This document shows, in pieces, positions 371 through 3,984 of a DNA stretch of 13,605 bases. A program made the position numbers and the translations under genes. Position 1 is the stretch's first letter. The number at the start of each line of letters is the position of its first letter. Below the pieces are notes generated by a model. That model had not been told where the DNA came from. It saw only the letters and a program-made list of their open reading frames with translations, and ran no database searches. The stretch comes from a virus. Its lineage: Duplodnaviria; Heunggongvirae; Uroviricota; Caudoviricetes. The stretch lies in the IMG/VR virus record IMGVR_UViG_2695420596_000001, positions 1-13,605 of that record; one strand, written 5' to 3'.

Positions 371-413
371 AAAAAAACAGCCAGCACTGACTTTCGGTGG
401 AGAGGTGCTGGCT
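371..413 (-). terminator. Hairpin with adjacent A7 tract: candidate minus-strand intrinsic terminator, copy 2 (paralogous to 223-263)
   Basis: Inverted repeat CAGCCAGCAC (378-387) / GTGCTGGCT (405-413) with a 17 nt loop, preceded by AAAAAAA (371-377). Shares the GCCAGC(G)ACTGAC core with copy 1. Confidence 0.3.
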
Positions 414-483
414 CAGAAGGATAGTTGGATTTCACATGATACTTATGCCTGGCGGTATATTTTCTGACAGACAGTGACGGGTG

Positions 484-668: not shown

Positions 669-875
669 ATGGAAAAAATCACAACAGGTGTGTCATACAC
701 CACGTCAGCGGTGGGGACGGGATACTGGTTACTGCAGCTGCTGGACAAAGTCTCTCCGTCCCAGTGGGTGGCAATAGGTGTGCTGGGAAGTCTGCTGTTT
801 GGCCTGCTGACGTATCTGACTAACCTGTATTTCAAAATCAGAGAGGACCGTCGTAAGGTGGCGCGGGGAGAGTAG
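669..875 (+). CDS. S: Class II holin (pinholin), phage 21 S-like, 68 aa
   Basis: Translation [68 protein letters not shown] closely parallels the S21 pinholin as I recall it (two TM helices, C-terminal ...[17 protein letters not shown]). SD-like GGAGAC lies 9 nt upstream of the ATG. Confidence 0.85.
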
Positions 876-1130
876 TCGATGAATAAACAATACGAACTGG
901 TTGTAAAATGAATATTTCTAACTGAAAAAACGTTCCATGAGGTAAGAAAAGGTCACAGGCAATCAATAACAGGACGTGATGAAAGACCCTTGCATTTGTG
1001 CGCTTTCTCTTTAGATAGCAGCAGATACTGAAAATCTGAGTTGTCGGGGAGTCAGGGATACAGCTGTGCAAGAGTTGGTCATTGTGATTCCATTGAAATC
1101 CTGTATGCCATGAAGGGCAGGATTTTATGG

Positions 1131-1445
1131 CTACCTGAGCTTTGGTGATAGTAAGTTGAAAATTCGCATTTTTTGCTGACATGCGTAACGAGAATCCCAT
1201 AAGCAGGGAGGACTTAATTCTTCATTAACCCATGCGTTGATATTATGTTTCAGCCGTTGAAGCATCAGCGGTGTTAATGTTGTGGTAATAATATCCAGCG
1301 TTTTATGTGAGATCTTACCGTAAGGGTCTGCAAGAATGCTGCTTGTTGCTTCGTTATTATCTGCCATCAGAAGAAGTAACTCTGATTTAACGTTTTCTGT
1401 CATTAGTTGTAAAAATCTTCTGCGCAAACTTTCTTTACTGTTCAT
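1131..1445 (-). CDS. Hypothetical protein (104 aa), opposite-strand cargo ORF inserted between holin and endolysin
   Basis: Intact minus-strand ORF (MNSKESLRRRFLQLMTENVKSELLLLMADNNEATSS...) in a visibly AT-rich ~690 bp segment that interrupts the otherwise contiguous S-R arrangement. A TATAAT-like hexamer sits upstream on the minus strand (around 1511-1518). The composition is helix-rich and protein-like; no family recognised. Confidence 0.4.
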   Translation of the reverse strand: MNSKESLRRRFLQLMTENVKSELLLLMADNNEATSSILADPYGKISHKTLDIITTTLTPLMLQRLKHNINAWVNEELSPPCLWDSRYACQQKMRIFNLLSPKLR

Positions 1446-1562
1446 TTATATGGCTTCATTTGTTGTAATCTGCTGCGTCTCAAGGGATATGTTTATGAGA
1501 GCGACCATGAGTGTTGGATTATATACCTAACATATCAAGGGATTAGAAATCGATAAATCCCC

Positions 1563-2096
1563 ATGCACGAAAAAATAAAATACGGCCTGTCGGCTGCCGT
1601 TCTGGCGCTGATTGGTGCAGGTGCTTCTGCGCCTGAAATCCTCGACCAGTTTCTGGATGAAAAGGAAGGTAACCACACCACGGCATACCGTGATGGTGCG
1701 GGGATCTGGACCATCTGCCGTGGTGCCATTCTGGTGGATGGTAAGCCTGTTATTCCTGGCATGAAGCTGTCAAAGGAAAAATGCGACCGGGTTAATGCCA
1801 TCGAACGTGACAAGGCGCTGGCATGGGTGGAGAAAAACATCCGGGTGCCGCTGACCGAACCCCAGAAAGCGGGGATCGCGTCATTCTGTCCGTACAACAT
1901 TGGCCCCGGTAAGTGCTTCCCGTCGACGTTTTATAAACGAATTAATGCAGGCGATCGAAAAGGTGCCTGTGAGGCGATTCGCTGGTGGATTAAGGACGGT
2001 GGCAGAGACTGCCGTATCCGTTCAAATAATTGCTACGGTCAGGTCTCACGGCGTGACCAGGAGAGCGCGCTGGCGTGCTGGGACATCGACAGATAG
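1563..2096 (+). CDS. R: Phage endolysin (lysozyme family, SAR-type N-terminus), 177 aa
   Basis: N-terminal weakly hydrophobic Gly/Ala-rich segment (KYGLSAAVLALIGAGASAP) followed by a lysozyme-like domain. It resembles the R21/RrrQ-type prophage endolysins of E. coli as recalled. A SAR endolysin is the expected partner of a pinholin. Confidence 0.88.
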   Translation: MHEKIKYGLSAAVLALIGAGASAPEILDQFLDEKEGNHTTAYRDGAGIWTICRGAILVDGKPVIPGMKLSKEKCDRVNAIERDKALAWVEKNIRVPLTEPQKAGIASFCPYNIGPGKCFPSTFYKRINAGDRKGACEAIRWWIKDGGRDCRIRSNNCYGQVSRRDQESALACWDIDR

Positions 2097-2185
2097 CAGA
2101 ATATTTTCCTGAAAAATGACGTTGGCCAACGCGGGTGGATAACACGAAATCCTGAAAACTGGTAAAACCTAAGTGAATAAAAGTA

Positions 2186-2226
2186 AAAACCCCGTTTGTT
2201 GGCAGCAAGCGGGGTTTTGTGTTTTC
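2186..2226. terminator. Bidirectional intrinsic terminator between endolysin and spanin genes
   Basis: Stem AAAACCCCG (2186-2194) / CGGGGTTTT (2210-2218) with loop TTTGTTGGCAGCAAG, flanked by an A-run upstream and TTTTGTGTTTT downstream. Confidence 0.55.
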
Positions 2227-2316
2227 TGACCTTGAGCAAGGCAAGGGAGAAATTATGGGTAGGGAGGTACTTTCCCTGTGAGGAAGTATAAAAGATTCTT
2301 TCTGAGGTTGTCCATT

Positions 2317-2430
2317 ATGAAAGGCATTGAAGTGGAGACGCCAGCCAGTCTGGATTTAACAAGAGCGGCAGCTTTTGCCATTCGTATTGTGGCCATTGCT
2401 GTTCTGGTCTGGGCAATCCGTTGGTGGTGA
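2317..2430 (+). CDS. Small ORF (37 aa) with a C-terminal hydrophobic helix, stop codon abutting the Rz start
   Basis: ATG at 2317 with GAGG 9 nt upstream; translation MKGIEVETPASLDLTRAAAFAIRIVAIAVLVWAIRWW; its TGA (2428-2430) is followed one base later by the Rz ATG (2432). Not in the ORF track because it is under 60 aa. Confidence 0.3.
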   Translation: MKGIEVETPASLDLTRAAAFAIRIVAIAVLVWAIRWW

Positions 2431-2431
2431 T

Positions 2432-2899
2432 ATGAACCGTGTTCTGTGCGTGGTTATCATTGTCCTGCTGGTGGCCTGTGGTGCGCTTAGTCTGGGGCTG
2501 AATCATTACCGTGATCACGCCATCATCTACAAAGAGCAGCGCGATAAAAAAGCCAGTGAGCTGGAGCTGGCGAACGCGACAATTACTGATATGCAGATAC
2601 GCCAGCGTGATGTCGCTGCACTTGATGCCAGATACTCGAGGGAATTAGCCGATGCGAGAGCTGAAAATGAAACTCTGCGTGCTGATGTTGCCGCTGGTCG
2701 TAAGCGCCTGCGGATCAACGCCACCTGCTCCGGTACCGTGCGTGAAGCCACCGGCACCTCCGGCGTGGATAATGCAACCGGCCCCCGACTGGCAGACACC
2801 GCTGAACGGGATTATTTCATCCTCAGAGAACGGCTGATGGCAATGCAGAAGCAACTGGAAGGAGCACAGGAATATATCCGTACCCAGTGTATACCGTGA
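2432..2899 (+). CDS. Rz: Rz inner-membrane spanin (i-spanin), 155 aa
   Basis: Translation from ATG 2432 (MNRVLCVVIIVLLVACGALSLGLNHYRDHAIIYKEQRDK...RDVAALDARY...TAERDYFILRERL...) is collinear with lambda Rz as recalled: N-terminal TM helix then coiled-coil periplasmic domain. Confidence 0.85.
   Translation: MNRVLCVVIIVLLVACGALSLGLNHYRDHAIIYKEQRDKKASELELANATITDMQIRQRDVAALDARYSRELADARAENETLRADVAAGRKRLRINATCSGTVREATGTSGVDNATGPRLADTAERDYFILRERLMAMQKQLEGAQEYIRTQCIP
2652..2837 (+). CDS. Rz1: Rz1 outer-membrane lipoprotein spanin (o-spanin), embedded in the +1 frame of Rz
   Basis: MRELKMKLCVLMLPLVVSACGSTPPAPVPCVKPPAPPAWIMQPAPDWQTPLNGII... has a lipobox (VSAC) and a proline-rich mature region nearly collinear with lambda Rz1; it lies wholly inside Rz in another frame. 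Confidence 0.8.
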   Translation: MRELKMKLCVLMLPLVVSACGSTPPAPVPCVKPPAPPAWIMQPAPDWQTPLNGIISSSENG

Positions 2900-3234
2900 T
2901 ATTTTGTTATGAAGGTGTTACTGGTAACGTTAAGGTAATTTAACAAAGAGTCAGTTCCGGACTTTATAGTGTGCTCAGTTCATGGCCAAAAACGATTTCT
3001 GTGATAAATATTTTGAATATTATTTACAGGTAAATGGAGTGGGGCACATGGATAGAAATATTACAATAGAGAATGAAGTATATGCCCGTATTGTATGGGC
3101 AGAGAAGGCAAAAACACGGTAATTCCGTGTGTTGCCATGATACCTGATTGGCAGAATAGTTGTTTGGTTTTGAGTATATAGTCAGCGTTTTTTGTTCAGT
3201 AATTGCTCCCTCAAAAAATAATAAAACAAGGTGA

Positions 3235-3363: not shown

Positions 3364-3678
3364 ATGCTACATGATCACGTGGCAGAATGTCTGGAGAAAA
3401 AAGGACTGTACCGGAGAGCAGCTGAACGATGGGCAAAAGTGATGGTACAGCTAAGTGATGACCAGAAAAGAAAAGTGGCGGCACAGAAACGAGCAGAGTG
3501 TTTGCGTAAGGCGCGCCGGACTCCGGTTTCACCGGTGAACCTGACCGAAATAAAACAAGCGGTCAACAGACTACATTCTGAGTTGGGAATGGGATTTGAA
3601 GAGCGGCGGGTATTCCGACGATATAAAGGGACAGGAGAACAGAATACGTCCGGAAACGCGCGGTCAAAAAAATGCTAA
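3364..3678 (+). CDS. PerC-family-like small transcriptional regulator (104 aa), prophage cargo gene
   Basis: N-terminus MLHDHVAECLEKKGLYRRAAERWAKVMVQ matches the pattern I associate with the PerC/Pch family (AE.LE..G..RRAA.RW..V). Good SD (GGAGG, 6 nt spacer). Family call is from memory of the motif, not a search. Confidence 0.45.
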   Translation: MLHDHVAECLEKKGLYRRAAERWAKVMVQLSDDQKRKVAAQKRAECLRKARRTPVSPVNLTEIKQAVNRLHSELGMGFEERRVFRRYKGTGEQNTSGNARSKKC

Positions 3679-3759: not shown

Positions 3760-3984
3760 TTAAGTAAACCTGTCTGAACAGGTGCTCTGGTCGTGTTTGT
3801 CTTTGTTGGGTACAAATTGAGCATGTTTTTCATTAATTAATCTTCTTCTGCAGGCTTCAATAACCCACGCTGAAAAATTACCTGAACCTTTCTGATCAAG
3901 AGCGATGTTAATTTGTTCAATCATTTGGTTAGGAAAGCGGATGTTGCGGGTTGTTTTTCTGCGGGTTCTGTTCTTCGTTGACAT
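3760..3984 (-). CDS. Ribbon-helix-helix (Arc/Mnt/CopG-type) DNA-binding protein, 74 aa
   Basis: MSTKNRTRRKTTRNIRFPNQMIEQINIALDQKGSGNFSAWVIEACRRRL...: an Arg-rich N-terminal arm, then a beta-strand/helix/helix pattern (IRFP..E.I..A...G.S.NFS..V.EA) typical of Arc/Mnt-like repressors. Confidence 0.6.
   Translation of the reverse strand: MSTKNRTRRKTTRNIRFPNQMIEQINIALDQKGSGNFSAWVIEACRRRLINEKHAQFVPNKDKHDQSTCSDRFT

What the first reader, a model, noticed from the sequence alone, without database searches (positions are those of the whole stretch)
2097..2431. Terminator and a 37-codon membrane-peptide ORF inserted between endolysin and Rz
Lambda R and Rz are adjacent. Here about 335 bp separate them, containing a strong bidirectional hairpin terminator (2186-2226) and then a small ORF (2317-2430) with a good SD whose stop is one base from the Rz ATG, an arrangement suggesting translational coupling. 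The peptide has a polar N-terminus and a single hydrophobic helix (AAAFAIRIVAIAVLVWAIRWW), reminiscent of small membrane-active lysis accessories or toxin-like peptides. The terminator would make Rz/Rz1 expression depend on Q-type antitermination or a local promoter.
Basis: seen in the sequence. Interest (0 to 1): 0.45.

Follow-up and report, generated by a model that had tools for sequence, protein, structure and literature searches.

The report
Small membrane-peptide gene preceding spanin Rz
Between the cell-wall enzyme gene and the outer-membrane-disruption gene of this E. coli prophage lies a real, strongly conserved 37-codon gene for a one-helix membrane peptide, preceded by a conserved terminator; it is common in E. 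coli prophages, annotated only as hypothetical, and its function is untested.

Summary
A 335-bp spacer (2097-2431) separates the phage-21-type endolysin R from Rz. It holds a 15-bp hairpin terminator (2186-2218) and a 37-codon ORF (2317-2430) whose stop lies one base before the Rz ATG.

The ORF is a real gene. Eight diverged alleles give dN/dS of 0.03-0.10 in most diverged pairs, with synonymous sites near saturation. It matches PHROG 4493 (function unknown) and is already annotated as Sakai ECs_1094 / WP_000675931.1. AlphaFold2 predicts one 28-residue helix.

It is not an insertion peculiar to this window. All 76 related cassettes carry an intact 28-49 aa hydrophobic ORF ending 1-7 nt before Rz. 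These ORFs come from at least three families in a mosaic micro-gene array.

The peptide travels with Rz, not with the endolysin. It occurs with SAR lysozyme, GH108 and M15 endolysins.

The hairpin keeps its pairing through compensatory changes.

A related cassette is transcriptionally silent in uninduced lysogens, and no plus-strand promoter was found. Late, Q-dependent expression coupled to Rz is therefore the best reading.

A conserved minus-strand promoter-like site (2314-2285) facing the hairpin raises an untested antisense-RNA possibility.

Function is unknown. Interest is moderate.

The parts
669..875 (+). Class II (phage-21 type) holin / pinholin S
   Evidence: Pfam PF04971 E=1.3e-32; PHROG holin
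1563..2096 (+). Endolysin R (phage lysozyme, R21-like with a hydrophobic G/A-rich N-terminus, predicted SAR type)
   Evidence: Pfam PF00959 E=7.7e-24. N-terminal sequence read. SAR type inferred from PMC8136144; not tested here.
2097..2185 (+). Conserved non-coding 3' flank of R. It is a linker sequence also seen at other module joints.
   Evidence: First ~156 nt of the gap match at 85-93 % in Stx1a/Stx2a phages. 2007 of 5426 complete E. coli genomes have a match to the gap. A similar stretch follows the 60-aa lipoprotein gene in L088.
2186..2225 (.). Bidirectional intrinsic-terminator hairpin: stem 2186-2218, + strand T-tail to 2225, - strand U-tail encoded by 2172-2189
   Evidence: 15 alleles show 85 % of cells paired versus 42-62 % in slid controls, and 5 pairs changed on both sides. 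Present in all gap classes that lack the ant antirepressor gene.
2243..2281 (+). Strong SD (AAGGGAG, 2243-2249) plus an 8-codon mini-ORF (ATG 2255 to TGA 2279-2281). The stop overlaps GTG 2278 as GTGA.
   Evidence: Read from the sequence. The same SD and start opens the family-A micro-ORF in the 298-bp class. Mini-ORF conserved in L103, L001 and L100.
2278..2316 (+). Nearly invariant 39-nt leader. It is also a possible N-terminal extension (GTG start, RKYKRFFLRLSI) giving a 50-aa long form.
   Evidence: Alignment. In frame and open in 6 of 8 alleles, with mostly synonymous or conservative changes across the D and C families. The PHROG 4493 profile extends 13 positions N-terminal of the 37-aa form. 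50-aa forms are called in public data.
2285..2314 (-). Sigma-70 promoter-like site on the minus strand (TGGACA-18-TATACT), pointing at the hairpin
   Evidence: 10 of 12. Found at the same place in L088, L097, L100 (TGGATA-17-TATACT) and in the C-family locus L024. Function not shown.
2175..2278 (-). Hypothetical ~100-nt antisense RNA, running from the promoter-like site to the hairpin
   Evidence: Inference only. Predicted fold -26.6 kcal/mol, z=-3.2. Minus-strand RNA-seq/RIBOseq signal just beyond it (XECs106). No Hfq-CRAC peak in the Sakai gap.
2317..2430 (+). 37-codon gene for a single-helix membrane peptide (MKGIEVETPASLDLTRAAAFAIRIVAIAVLVWAIRWW)
   Evidence: PHROG 4493 E=5.5e-16. Annotated as WP_000675931.1 / ECs_1094. 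dN/dS 0.03-0.10 in most diverged pairs. AF2 helix 9-36, pLDDT 82. Exact sequence on >=1000 contigs.
2423..2431 (+). GGTGGTGAT: the last codons and stop of the peptide gene double as the Rz Shine-Dalgarno sequence. The stop is 1 nt from the Rz ATG.
   Evidence: Sequence. Junction invariant in 8 diverged alleles and shared with the family-A' ORF that also ends IRWW.
2432..2899 (+). Rz i-spanin
   Evidence: Pfam PF03245 E=8.4e-49; PHROG 13
2652..2837 (+). Rz1 o-spanin lipoprotein embedded in Rz (+1 frame)
   Evidence: ORF with lipobox VVSAC. Annotated as a lipoprotein precursor in Sakai.

Best explanation
The 37-codon ORF is a genuine phage gene. It encodes a one-helix inner-membrane peptide with a short acidic N-terminus and a roughly 28-residue helix carrying conserved Arg23 and a C-terminal RWW. 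It belongs to the spanin (Rz/Rz1) module of the lysis cassette.

The most likely mechanism has three steps:
1. In the lysogen the cassette is silent. The intrinsic terminator just after R stops any RNA polymerase that is not Q-modified.
2. After induction, Q-modified polymerase from the late promoter reads through the hairpin and transcribes peptide-Rz-Rz1 on the same late mRNA as S and R.
3. Ribosomes translating the peptide run over the Rz Shine-Dalgarno sequence, which is encoded by the peptide's last codons. They terminate one base before the Rz AUG, so Rz synthesis is coupled to peptide synthesis. Both products enter the inner membrane together.

The peptide then acts as an accessory factor of the envelope-disruption step. 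It might gate, tune or assist the i-spanin, or perturb the membrane.

What is shown: a real gene under purifying selection, the helix prediction, linkage and junction with Rz, the conserved terminator structure, and silence of a related cassette in lysogens.

What is inferred: Q-dependent read-through, translational coupling, membrane insertion, and any role in lysis.
For: Coding:
- dN/dS is 0.03-0.10 in most diverged allele pairs, at pS 0.55-0.74.
- Replacements in the helix are conservative I/V/L/A/M changes.
- Frameshifted variants are rare singletons, while intact forms sit on >=1000, 999, 505 and 149 contigs.
- PHROG 4493 E=5.5e-16.

Structure: AF2 gives a single helix 9-36. Maximum Kyte-Doolittle hydrophobicity over 15 residues is 2.6.

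Linkage to Rz:
- The gene lies 1 nt upstream of a PF03245 Rz in cassettes with PF00959, PF05838 and PF13539 endolysins.
- These Rz partners are down to 44 % identical to each other.
- 76 of 76 related cassettes have a 28-49 aa hydrophobic ORF ending 1-7 nt before Rz.
- Sister micro-ORF families are also under purifying selection.

Junction GGTGGTGA-N-ATG is invariant.

Terminator.

Late expression:
- No +-strand promoter-like site between 2219 and 2316.
- RNA-seq baseMean is 1.9, 0.87 and 0.12 for R, a paralogous micro-ORF and Rz in uninduced EPEC (PMC8550237 table S2).
- ECs1094 is absent from the held supplementary tables of the Sakai RIBOseq study, which include its table of short annotated genes translated in LB.
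Against: - No experiment addresses expression, localisation or function.
- Lambda-type and RrrD-linked Rz genes work without any such peptide, so it cannot be an essential spanin partner.
- In the commonest allele context (L088-L092) the downstream gene is not Rz but a 60-aa lipoprotein of unknown function.
- In the LT-II prophages the downstream gene is decayed while the peptide is intact.
- The 39-nt leader is more conserved than coding or translation-initiation constraints alone would predict, and it carries a minus-strand promoter-like site. Regulation may therefore be more complex than simple read-through.
- Predicted sequestration of the Rz initiation region is not better than in shuffles (z=-0.9).
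Confidence: 0.5

Rival explanations
1. Antisense-RNA-controlled module, type-I-toxin-like or P22-sar-like. The conserved leader holds a minus-strand promoter (2314-2285). It would drive a ~100-nt RNA ending at the bidirectional hairpin (about 2278 to 2175). This RNA is complementary to the SDs and starts of the mini-ORF and of the long form. It would silence the hydrophobic peptide, and with it Rz, in lysogens, or it would act in trans as another prophage sRNA.
For: - The promoter-like site is the best in 5 kb. It passes the scan at the homologous place in four further diverged alleles, including the C family.
- In L100 a 1-nt spacer deletion keeps promoter geometry (17 nt) while breaking the frame of the N-terminal extension.
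- The A-run that gives the minus-strand U-tail is present in all 15 hairpin alleles, whereas L093 has lost the plus-strand T-run.
- The hairpin moves with the peptide module into M15 and GH108 cassettes.
- Minus-strand RNA-seq and RIBOseq signal is seen in uninduced Sakai right next to the predicted 3' end (XECs106; RPKM 5.9-60).
- Other sRNAs of these prophages also lie antisense to the late operon: a PasA-like gene upstream of the holin here, and HnrS downstream of Rz in Sakai prophages.
Against: - No Hfq-CRAC peak in the Sakai Sp4 gap.
- No RIL-seq chimera was found, although E2348/69 lacks this leader and the tables are truncated.
- No Rfam family matches.
- The leader's conservation can also be explained by the ORF's initiation region or by coding of the long form.
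- Cassettes that carry the ant antirepressor gene have a plus-strand-only hairpin.
- No plus-strand toxin promoter is present, which a classical type I system would have.
- The XECs106 signal lies beyond the terminator and could come from another promoter.
Confidence: 0.25
2. Lysogen-expressed moron. The peptide would be made from the prophage and serve the host or the prophage, for example by superinfection exclusion or a membrane-stress function, independently of lysis.
For: - The R-Rz junction is clearly a moron site. Antirepressor genes and LT-II toxin genes are found there in relatives.
- Small membrane proteins are typical morons (own knowledge).
Against: - No plus-strand promoter and no downstream terminator of its own.
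- Same orientation as Rz and a 1-nt junction with it.
- A paralogous micro-ORF has RNA-seq baseMean 0.87 in uninduced EPEC.
- ECs1094 does not appear in the held supplementary tables of the Sakai RIBOseq study of uninduced cultures.
Confidence: 0.08
3. Pure coupling device or leftover. The ORF would matter only because its translation delivers ribosomes to the Rz start, or it would be a decaying remnant. The peptide itself would have no function.
For: - The stop and the last codons form the Rz SD, and the junction is invariant.
- Three unrelated peptide families can occupy the position.
- The array is mosaic, with truncated forms such as the 28-aa D form, and occasional pseudogenes such as two in-frame stops in Stx2_14040.
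Against: - dN/dS of 0.03-0.10 over the whole ORF, with saturated synonymous sites, is not expected if only translation mattered.
- Arg16, Phe20-Ala-Ile-Arg23, Trp32 and Arg35-Trp-Trp are invariant.
- All occupants are hydrophobic single-helix peptides.
- The peptide stays intact where the downstream gene has decayed.
Confidence: 0.1
4. The hairpin mainly marks the 3' end of an R-derived (3'-UTR) small RNA, or stabilises the S-R message. It would not insulate Rz.
For: - The 125-nt stretch from the R stop to the terminator is conserved across Stx phages.
- 3'-UTR sRNAs ending at the mRNA terminator are common in enterobacteria (own knowledge).
Against: - No Hfq peak there.
- R is not transcribed in lysogens.
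- The hairpin travels with the peptide module next to unrelated endolysin genes whose stop codon lies only a few bases upstream.
Confidence: 0.07

Closest known systems
PHROG 4493 (with related PHROGs 1115 and 3246); RefSeq WP_000675931.1; Sakai ECs_1094
   Same: The window's peptide matches the profile over its full length (E=5.5e-16). It has the same length and annotated position as ECs_1094, and the surrounding DNA is almost base-for-base the same. The C family (PHROG 1115/3246) shares the motif R-A-x-A-F-A-I-[RK] and the leader.
   Different: Nothing differs. This is membership of a catalogued family whose function is unknown.
Phage 21 / lambda lysis cassette (S, R, Rz/Rz1)
   Same: Pinholin PF04971, lysozyme-type endolysin and embedded Rz/Rz1 occur in the same order on the late strand.
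   Different: In lambda-like and RrrD/Qin cassettes R and Rz overlap by 4 nt. Here there is a terminator plus one to four micro-genes between them.
P2 LysA, a membrane protein gene between endolysin K and spanin lysB (own knowledge)
   Same: A membrane-protein gene in the same slot, between endolysin and i-spanin, co-oriented with the lysis genes.
   Different: LysA is about 140 aa with several TMDs. There is no sequence relation, and a role in lysis timing has not been shown for this peptide.
Mu gp25 'releasin' (DUF2730; PMC9239132)
   Same: A small accessory membrane-anchored protein of a lysis cassette with a SAR endolysin.
   Different: gp25 has an N-terminal TMD and a cytoplasmic domain, and it is tied to SAR-endolysin release. 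This peptide has no Pfam hit and also occurs with M15 and GH108 endolysins.
Type I toxin-antitoxin loci with divergent sRNAs (ZorO/OrzO, ShoB/OhsC, TisB/IstR; own knowledge)
   Same: A short hydrophobic one-helix peptide, and a candidate opposite-strand promoter upstream of the ORF with its own terminator.
   Different: There is no toxin promoter and no demonstrated sRNA. The Rfam ohsC match is only 20 bits against a gathering score of 50. The gene sits inside a late operon and is coupled to Rz.
Prophage late-region sRNAs PasA, HnrS, AgvB, AsxR
   Same: Short RNAs encoded antisense to the late operon near the lysis genes. A PasA-type gene lies in this window upstream of the holin.
   Different: The gap sequence is none of these. 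AgvB and AsxR are in Rfam and gave no hit. PasA maps to 372-456. HnrS is absent from the window and in Sakai lies downstream of Rz.

Membership tests
PHROG 4493 (phage protein family, function unknown) | Significant full-length match to the family profile | tested here: met
   E=5.5e-16, 59 bits, residues 1-37 on profile positions 14-54 of 56
PHROG 4493 (phage protein family, function unknown) | Phage or prophage genomic context | tested here: met
   Lysis cassette in every locus examined
Real protein-coding gene (versus chance ORF) | Purifying selection; frame kept in diverged relatives | tested here: met
   dN/dS 0.03-0.10 in most diverged pairs at pS 0.55-0.74. 8 DNA alleles all open. Disrupted variants are rare.
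Intrinsic (rho-independent) terminator | G+C-rich stem-loop followed by a U-run; structure conserved | tested here: met
   15-bp stem plus T-tail. z=-4.2. 85 % of cells paired and 5 doubly changed pairs across 15 alleles.
Intrinsic (rho-independent) terminator | Termination of transcription in vivo, and read-through by Q-modified polymerase | not testable with these tools
   Needs Term-seq or reporter assays with and without Q
Translationally coupled gene pair (peptide to Rz) | Stop of the upstream ORF within a few nt of the downstream start; downstream SD inside the upstream ORF | tested here: met
   TGA-T-ATG with GGTGGTGAT inside the ORF end, invariant in 8 alleles
Translationally coupled gene pair (peptide to Rz) | Downstream translation depends on upstream translation | not testable with these tools
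   Predicted occlusion of the Rz initiation region is not significant (z=-0.9). Needs a nonsense-mutant reporter.
Holin / antiholin / pinholin families | Match to a holin family model | tested here: not met
   No Pfam or NCBIfam hit. PHROG hits are all 'unknown function'.
i-spanin (Rz-like) | N-terminal TMD followed by a periplasmic coiled-coil domain long enough to reach the o-spanin | tested here: not met
   37 aa, one helix 9-36, nothing beyond the helix. No PF03245 or spanin PHROG hit.
Type I toxin-antitoxin system | Small hydrophobic peptide whose overexpression is toxic | not testable with these tools
   Hydrophobic helix shown. Toxicity needs expression assays.
Type I toxin-antitoxin system | Antisense or divergent sRNA that pairs with the toxin mRNA | tested here: inconclusive
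   Conserved promoter-like site plus minus-strand terminator and a nearby antisense RNA-seq signal. However, there is no Hfq peak and no Rfam match.
Known prophage sRNAs (AgvB, AsxR, PasA-D, HnrS, StxS-type) | Sequence or covariance-model match, or same mapped coordinates | tested here: not met
   Rfam gave no hit at gathering score. The EcOnc and Pas coordinates map elsewhere.

The most novel reading that the evidence does not exclude
Tiny one-helix membrane peptides translated immediately ahead of Rz could be an unrecognised functional class of lysis-cassette proteins. The role is filled interchangeably by at least three unrelated families in every cassette of this lineage. Such peptides might gate or assist the spanin or the final membrane step. 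In the C/D families they may be guarded by a ~100-nt antisense RNA made from a conserved promoter inside the gene's leader and ended by the bidirectional hairpin.
Probability: 0.2. Interest if true: 0.75.

Novelty: new member of a known kind. Interest (0 to 1): 0.42.

Why it matters
Phage lysis of Gram-negative hosts is taught as a three-step process of holin, endolysin and spanin. Here a fourth, very small gene sits at a fixed position, abutting the spanin start, in every cassette of a lineage that includes Shiga-toxin phages. About a third of complete E. coli genomes have a match to this gap region. The gene is under strong purifying selection and has never been studied.

If it tunes spanin action or lysis timing, it would affect phage release and Shiga-toxin release from EHEC. 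If the antisense promoter is real, it would add another RNA regulator to a region already rich in virulence-linked sRNAs.

If it proves dispensable, the finding is still a clean example of a micro-gene that annotation pipelines carry only as 'hypothetical'.

Tried and rejected
- Rfam at gathering score over the whole window, and at E<=10 over 1900-2600. Only sub-threshold terminator-driven matches appeared (rimP 24 bits against a cut-off of 47; ohsC 20 against 50).
- Identity with known EHEC/EPEC prophage sRNAs was rejected. PasA maps upstream of the holin. EcOnc10-12 (HnrS) lie downstream of Rz in Sakai prophages. AgvB and AsxR are at the stx moron site. There is no EcOnc peak in the Sakai Sp4 gap.
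- RIL-seq tables of EPEC showed no chimera in the E2348/69 gap. That strain lacks the C/D leader and the stored tables are truncated.
- tblastn of the peptide against phage records gave no match, probably because of low-complexity masking. It was replaced by blastn, which found 7 phage records, only 2 with the full ORF.
- The genome-contig scan with Rz gave only 4 loci, 3 of them lambda-like, so it was of little use for breadth.
- K-12 Qin has no homologue, because rrrQ overlaps rzpQ. The K-12 small-protein literature therefore does not help.
- Full-text searches for the locus tags, protein accessions, peptide strings and the PHROG id found nothing.
- The Jobling 2016 LT-II paper is not held.
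- Reading the peptide as a minimal i-spanin paired with the 60-aa lipoprotein was rejected. It is too short and has no periplasmic domain.
- Pfam and NCBIfam gave no hits for any of the four micro-ORF families.
Full report
**1. Setting**

The window is the late region of a lambdoid, Stx-phage-like E. coli prophage.
- The lysis cassette is of the phage-21 type:
  - a class II holin (669-875, PF04971);
  - a lysozyme-type endolysin with a hydrophobic N-terminus (1563-2096, PF00959);
  - Rz (2432-2899, PF03245) with embedded Rz1 (2652-2837).
- Terminase genes follow from about 4379.
- The gap region is 100 % identical to E. coli O103 RM8385. It is nearly identical to an inverted segment of prophage Sp4 of O157:H7 Sakai, running pchA - Rz - ECs_1094 - R - S.

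**2.

- R stops at 2096 and the Rz ATG is at 2432.
- The hairpin has a 15-pair stem (2186-2218) with a 3-nt loop. A T-rich tail follows, and an A-run precedes it, so it reads as a terminator on both strands.
- It folds at -22.9 kcal/mol (z=-4.2) on the + strand and -15.5 kcal/mol (z=-2.9) on the - strand.
- The ORF runs from 2317 to 2430, with GAGG 9 nt before the ATG. Its TGA is one base from the Rz ATG.
- The last codons (GGTGGTGAT, 2423-2431) match the extended SD consensus GGAGGTGAT in 8 of 9 positions. They are therefore the Rz ribosome-binding site.
- Lambda-like loci, K-12 Qin and two E2348/69 RrrD cassettes have R and Rz overlapping by 4 nt.

**3. The ORF is a real gene, and already catalogued**

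- PGAP annotates it as WP_000675931.1. In Sakai it is ECs_1094.
- It matches PHROG 4493 (E=5.5e-16; unknown function), with weaker hits to PHROGs 1115 and 3246. There is no Pfam or NCBIfam family.
- The exact peptide is on at least 1000 public contigs, always named hypothetical or putative transmembrane protein.
- A search of 5.8 billion proteins found 62 cluster representatives. Every source name given is from Enterobacterales, mostly E. coli.
- I recovered eight distinct DNA alleles. Most diverged pairs differ at 55-74 % of synonymous sites but at only 6-10 % of non-synonymous sites, giving dN/dS of 0.03-0.10.
- Replacements in the helix are I/V/L/A/M/F/T exchanges. M1, K2, R16, A18, F20-A-I-R23, A28, W32 and R35-W-W are invariant.
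- Frameshifted forms exist but are singletons.
- AlphaFold2 on this alignment gives one continuous helix, residues 9-36 (mean pLDDT 82; 94-98 over the last 17 residues).
The ORF stands.

**4. It is not an insertion peculiar to this window**

I fetched 80 viral contigs whose endolysin is 93-100 % identical to this one.
- In the 76 that also hold Rz, the R-Rz distance is never zero. It falls into classes of 297/298, 335/336, 426, 438, 486-489, 642, about 978-1013 and 1197 bp.
- These spacers are mosaics of four families of tiny hydrophobic ORFs:
  - A/A' (PHROG 6632);
  - B (PHROG 4906);
  - C (PHROG 1115/3246);
  - D (PHROG 4493, the one here).
- The long classes also carry an antirepressor gene.
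- In all 76 loci an intact ORF of 28-49 aa, with a strongly hydrophobic stretch, ends 1-7 nt before the Rz ATG. It is D in 24 loci, A' in 19 and B in 33.
- The sister families also show purifying selection: A' 0.05-0.12, C about 0.08-0.16, B about 0.3.
- C and D are homologous. They share MK-G/N-(I/L)-E-(V/L), R-A-x-A-F-A-I-(R/K) and the upstream leader, and natural C/D hybrids exist (P0029).

**5. The gene travels with Rz, not with the endolysin**

Look-ups of five diverged alleles place the gene as follows.
- It lies 1 nt upstream of a PF03245 Rz in cassettes with three unrelated endolysins:
  - lysozyme PF00959 (window, L100);
  - GH108 PF05838 (L097);
  - Peptidase_M15_4 PF13539 (L103, L105), with different holins.
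- The Rz partners are as little as 44 % identical to each other. That is as far apart as lambda Rz, which has no such peptide.
- In the commonest allele context, Rz is replaced at the same TGA-T-ATG junction by a 60-aa lipoprotein of unknown function (PHROG 7528).
- In LT-II enterotoxin prophages, the toxin genes sit between endolysin and peptide, and the downstream lipoprotein gene is frameshifted while the peptide is intact.
- Homology between these contexts starts just left of the hairpin and ends at the downstream ATG. The mobile unit is therefore hairpin, leader, ORF and junction.

**6. The hairpin**

- All classes without the antirepressor carry the same hairpin, with changes mostly in the loop and upper stem.
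- The M15 and GH108 contexts carry diverged versions that keep pairing: CCCCG/CGGGG, GCCCCGG/TCGGGGC, CCCCAG/CTGGGG, CCCCGGaCTG/CAGTCCGGGG.
- On 15 alleles, 85 % of cells pair, against 42-62 % when the 3' arm is slid. Five pairs change on both sides, and the covariation score beats all 500 shuffles.
- Antirepressor classes have a different, plus-strand-only hairpin at the same place. L093 keeps only the minus-strand U-tail.
- A terminator after the endolysin gene is thus a constant of these cassettes. In the peptide module it is bidirectional.

**7. Expression**

- The simple scan finds no plus-strand promoter between hairpin and ORF.
- In E2348/69, prophage PP6 has the 642-bp class. RNA-seq baseMean in uninduced cultures is 1.9 for R, 0.87 for the C-family micro-ORF and 0.12 for Rz (PMC8550237 table S2).
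- ECs1094 does not appear in the held supplementary tables of the Sakai RIBOseq study, which include its table of short annotated genes translated in LB.
- These points fit late, Q-dependent transcription through the terminator. That is established behaviour of lambdoid late operons, but it is inferred here because the Q gene is outside the window.

**8.

(a) A strong SD (AAGGGAG, 2243-2249) opens an 8-codon mini-ORF (2255-2281). Its TGA overlaps a GTG at 2278 as GTGA.

(b) That GTG is in frame with the peptide and would give a 50-aa long form, adding RKYKRFFLRLSI.
- The extension is open in 6 of 8 D alleles and in all C alleles, where it starts at an ATG right after the strong SD.
- Its changes are mostly synonymous or conservative: CTG/TTG, TTC/TTT, ATT/ATA, AGG/AGA, ACT/ACC, AGA/CGA, R/K, F/I, F/L, S/T.
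- Two starts are therefore possible. Only ATG 2317 is universal.

(c) The 39 nt before the ATG differ at only 3-4 positions between alleles whose ORFs differ at about 20 % of positions. This is fewer than coding constraint alone predicts (about 9).

(d) On the minus strand this block reads TGGACA-18-TATACT (2314-2285).
- This is the top promoter-like site of the first 5 kb.
- It is found again at the homologous position in L088, L097, L100 and the C-family locus L024.
- In L100 a one-base spacer deletion gives 17-nt spacing while destroying the long-form frame.
- A transcript from it would start near 2278 and end at the hairpin, giving about 100 nt with a predicted fold at z=-3.2. It would be complementary to the SDs and starts of the mini-ORF and the long form.

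(e) Evidence on whether that antisense RNA exists is mixed.
- The Sakai RIBOseq study lists XECs106 on the Sakai + strand at 1184893-1184994. This is window minus strand, about 2050-2151, just beyond the hairpin. RNA-seq RPKM is 5.9, 60 and 15 in three conditions. The minus strand is therefore transcribed in lysogens, though the start site is unknown.
- Hfq-CRAC found no peak in this gap.

**9. Interpretation**

Firmly shown:
- a conserved gene for a one-helix hydrophobic peptide;
- a conserved terminator structure;
- fixed linkage and junction with the spanin gene;
- a lineage-wide rule that a tiny hydrophobic ORF abuts Rz.

Most likely, but inferred:
- The peptide is made only late, from the Q-antiterminated transcript.
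- It is translationally coupled to Rz.
- It acts in the inner membrane as an accessory of the last lysis steps.

It cannot be an essential spanin subunit, since lambda-type Rz lacks it. It is not an i-spanin, a holin-family member or a releasin by the tests available. The type-I-toxin/antisense reading and the moron reading remain as rivals; the second is disfavoured by the expression data.

**10. Novelty and score**

The sequence is already known and annotated as hypothetical, so this window adds another member of a catalogued family. I found three things nowhere in the searchable literature:
- the family's tight association with Rz across endolysin types;
- the 76-of-76 rule;
- the conserved leader and antisense promoter-like element.

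This is a solid, testable lead for phage-lysis biology rather than a surprise. Interest is 0.42.

Noticed in passing
window ~372-456, minus strand (probe match 380-404): The Northern probe for the EPEC sRNA PasA (GCCAGCACTGACTTTCGGTGGAGAG) matches the + strand exactly. A PasA-type Hfq-dependent sRNA gene, with a hairpin plus U-run, therefore lies upstream of the holin on the opposite strand. It corresponds to EcOnc35 in Sakai Sp4. Rfam has no model for it.
   Followed up: partly
window 876-1562 (ORF 1131-1445, minus strand): The holin and endolysin, which are adjacent in lambda, are separated here by 687 bp holding a 104-aa ORF on the opposite strand (PHROG 1853, unknown function). RM8385 has a different filling at this site (a partial YdfR-family gene). 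This looks like a second variable slot inside the lysis cassette.
   Followed up: no
window 3364-3678 (+): A PerC-family regulator gene, annotated pchA in the corresponding Sakai segment, lies just downstream of Rz. It is annotated as a PerC family transcriptional regulator in RM8385.
   Followed up: no
window 2982-3122 (+) and 3760-3984 (-): A 46-aa ORF (PHROG 2157, unknown function) and a YlcI/YnfO (DUF3950) family gene on the opposite strand. The sRNA HnrS, which lies between Rz and the DUF3950 gene in Sakai Sp9/Sp12, is absent from this window.
   Followed up: partly
window ~2050-2151, minus strand (Sakai 1184893-1184994 +): The Sakai RIBOseq study lists a translated 'novel gene' XECs106 here, antisense to the 3' end of R. 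It shows that the minus strand of the gap is transcribed in uninduced lysogens. Whether it is a gene is doubtful, since it has an ATT or unclear start and overlaps R.
   Followed up: partly
L088-L092, 2616-2798: In the commonest allele context, the peptide gene is followed at the same TGA-T-ATG junction by a 60-aa lipoprotein instead of Rz. The sequence is MARKHWTHRMPRAAAKWALVAILVPFLLVGC..., PHROG 7528, unknown function. No Rz/Rz1 is called in these cassettes, which raises the question of how they breach the outer membrane.
   Followed up: partly
L093-L096, 787-1925: Type II heat-labile enterotoxin genes (PF01375, PF06453) sit between a GH108 endolysin and the peptide gene. The endolysin-to-spanin junction therefore serves as a toxin-moron site as well.
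   Followed up: no
L003 (Stx2a phage Stx2_14040), 2500-2797: The family-A' micro-ORF carries two in-frame stops (TGA and TAG) where other 298-bp-class loci have CGA and TGG. This is an example of decay of one of these micro-genes in a sequenced Stx2a phage.
   Followed up: partly
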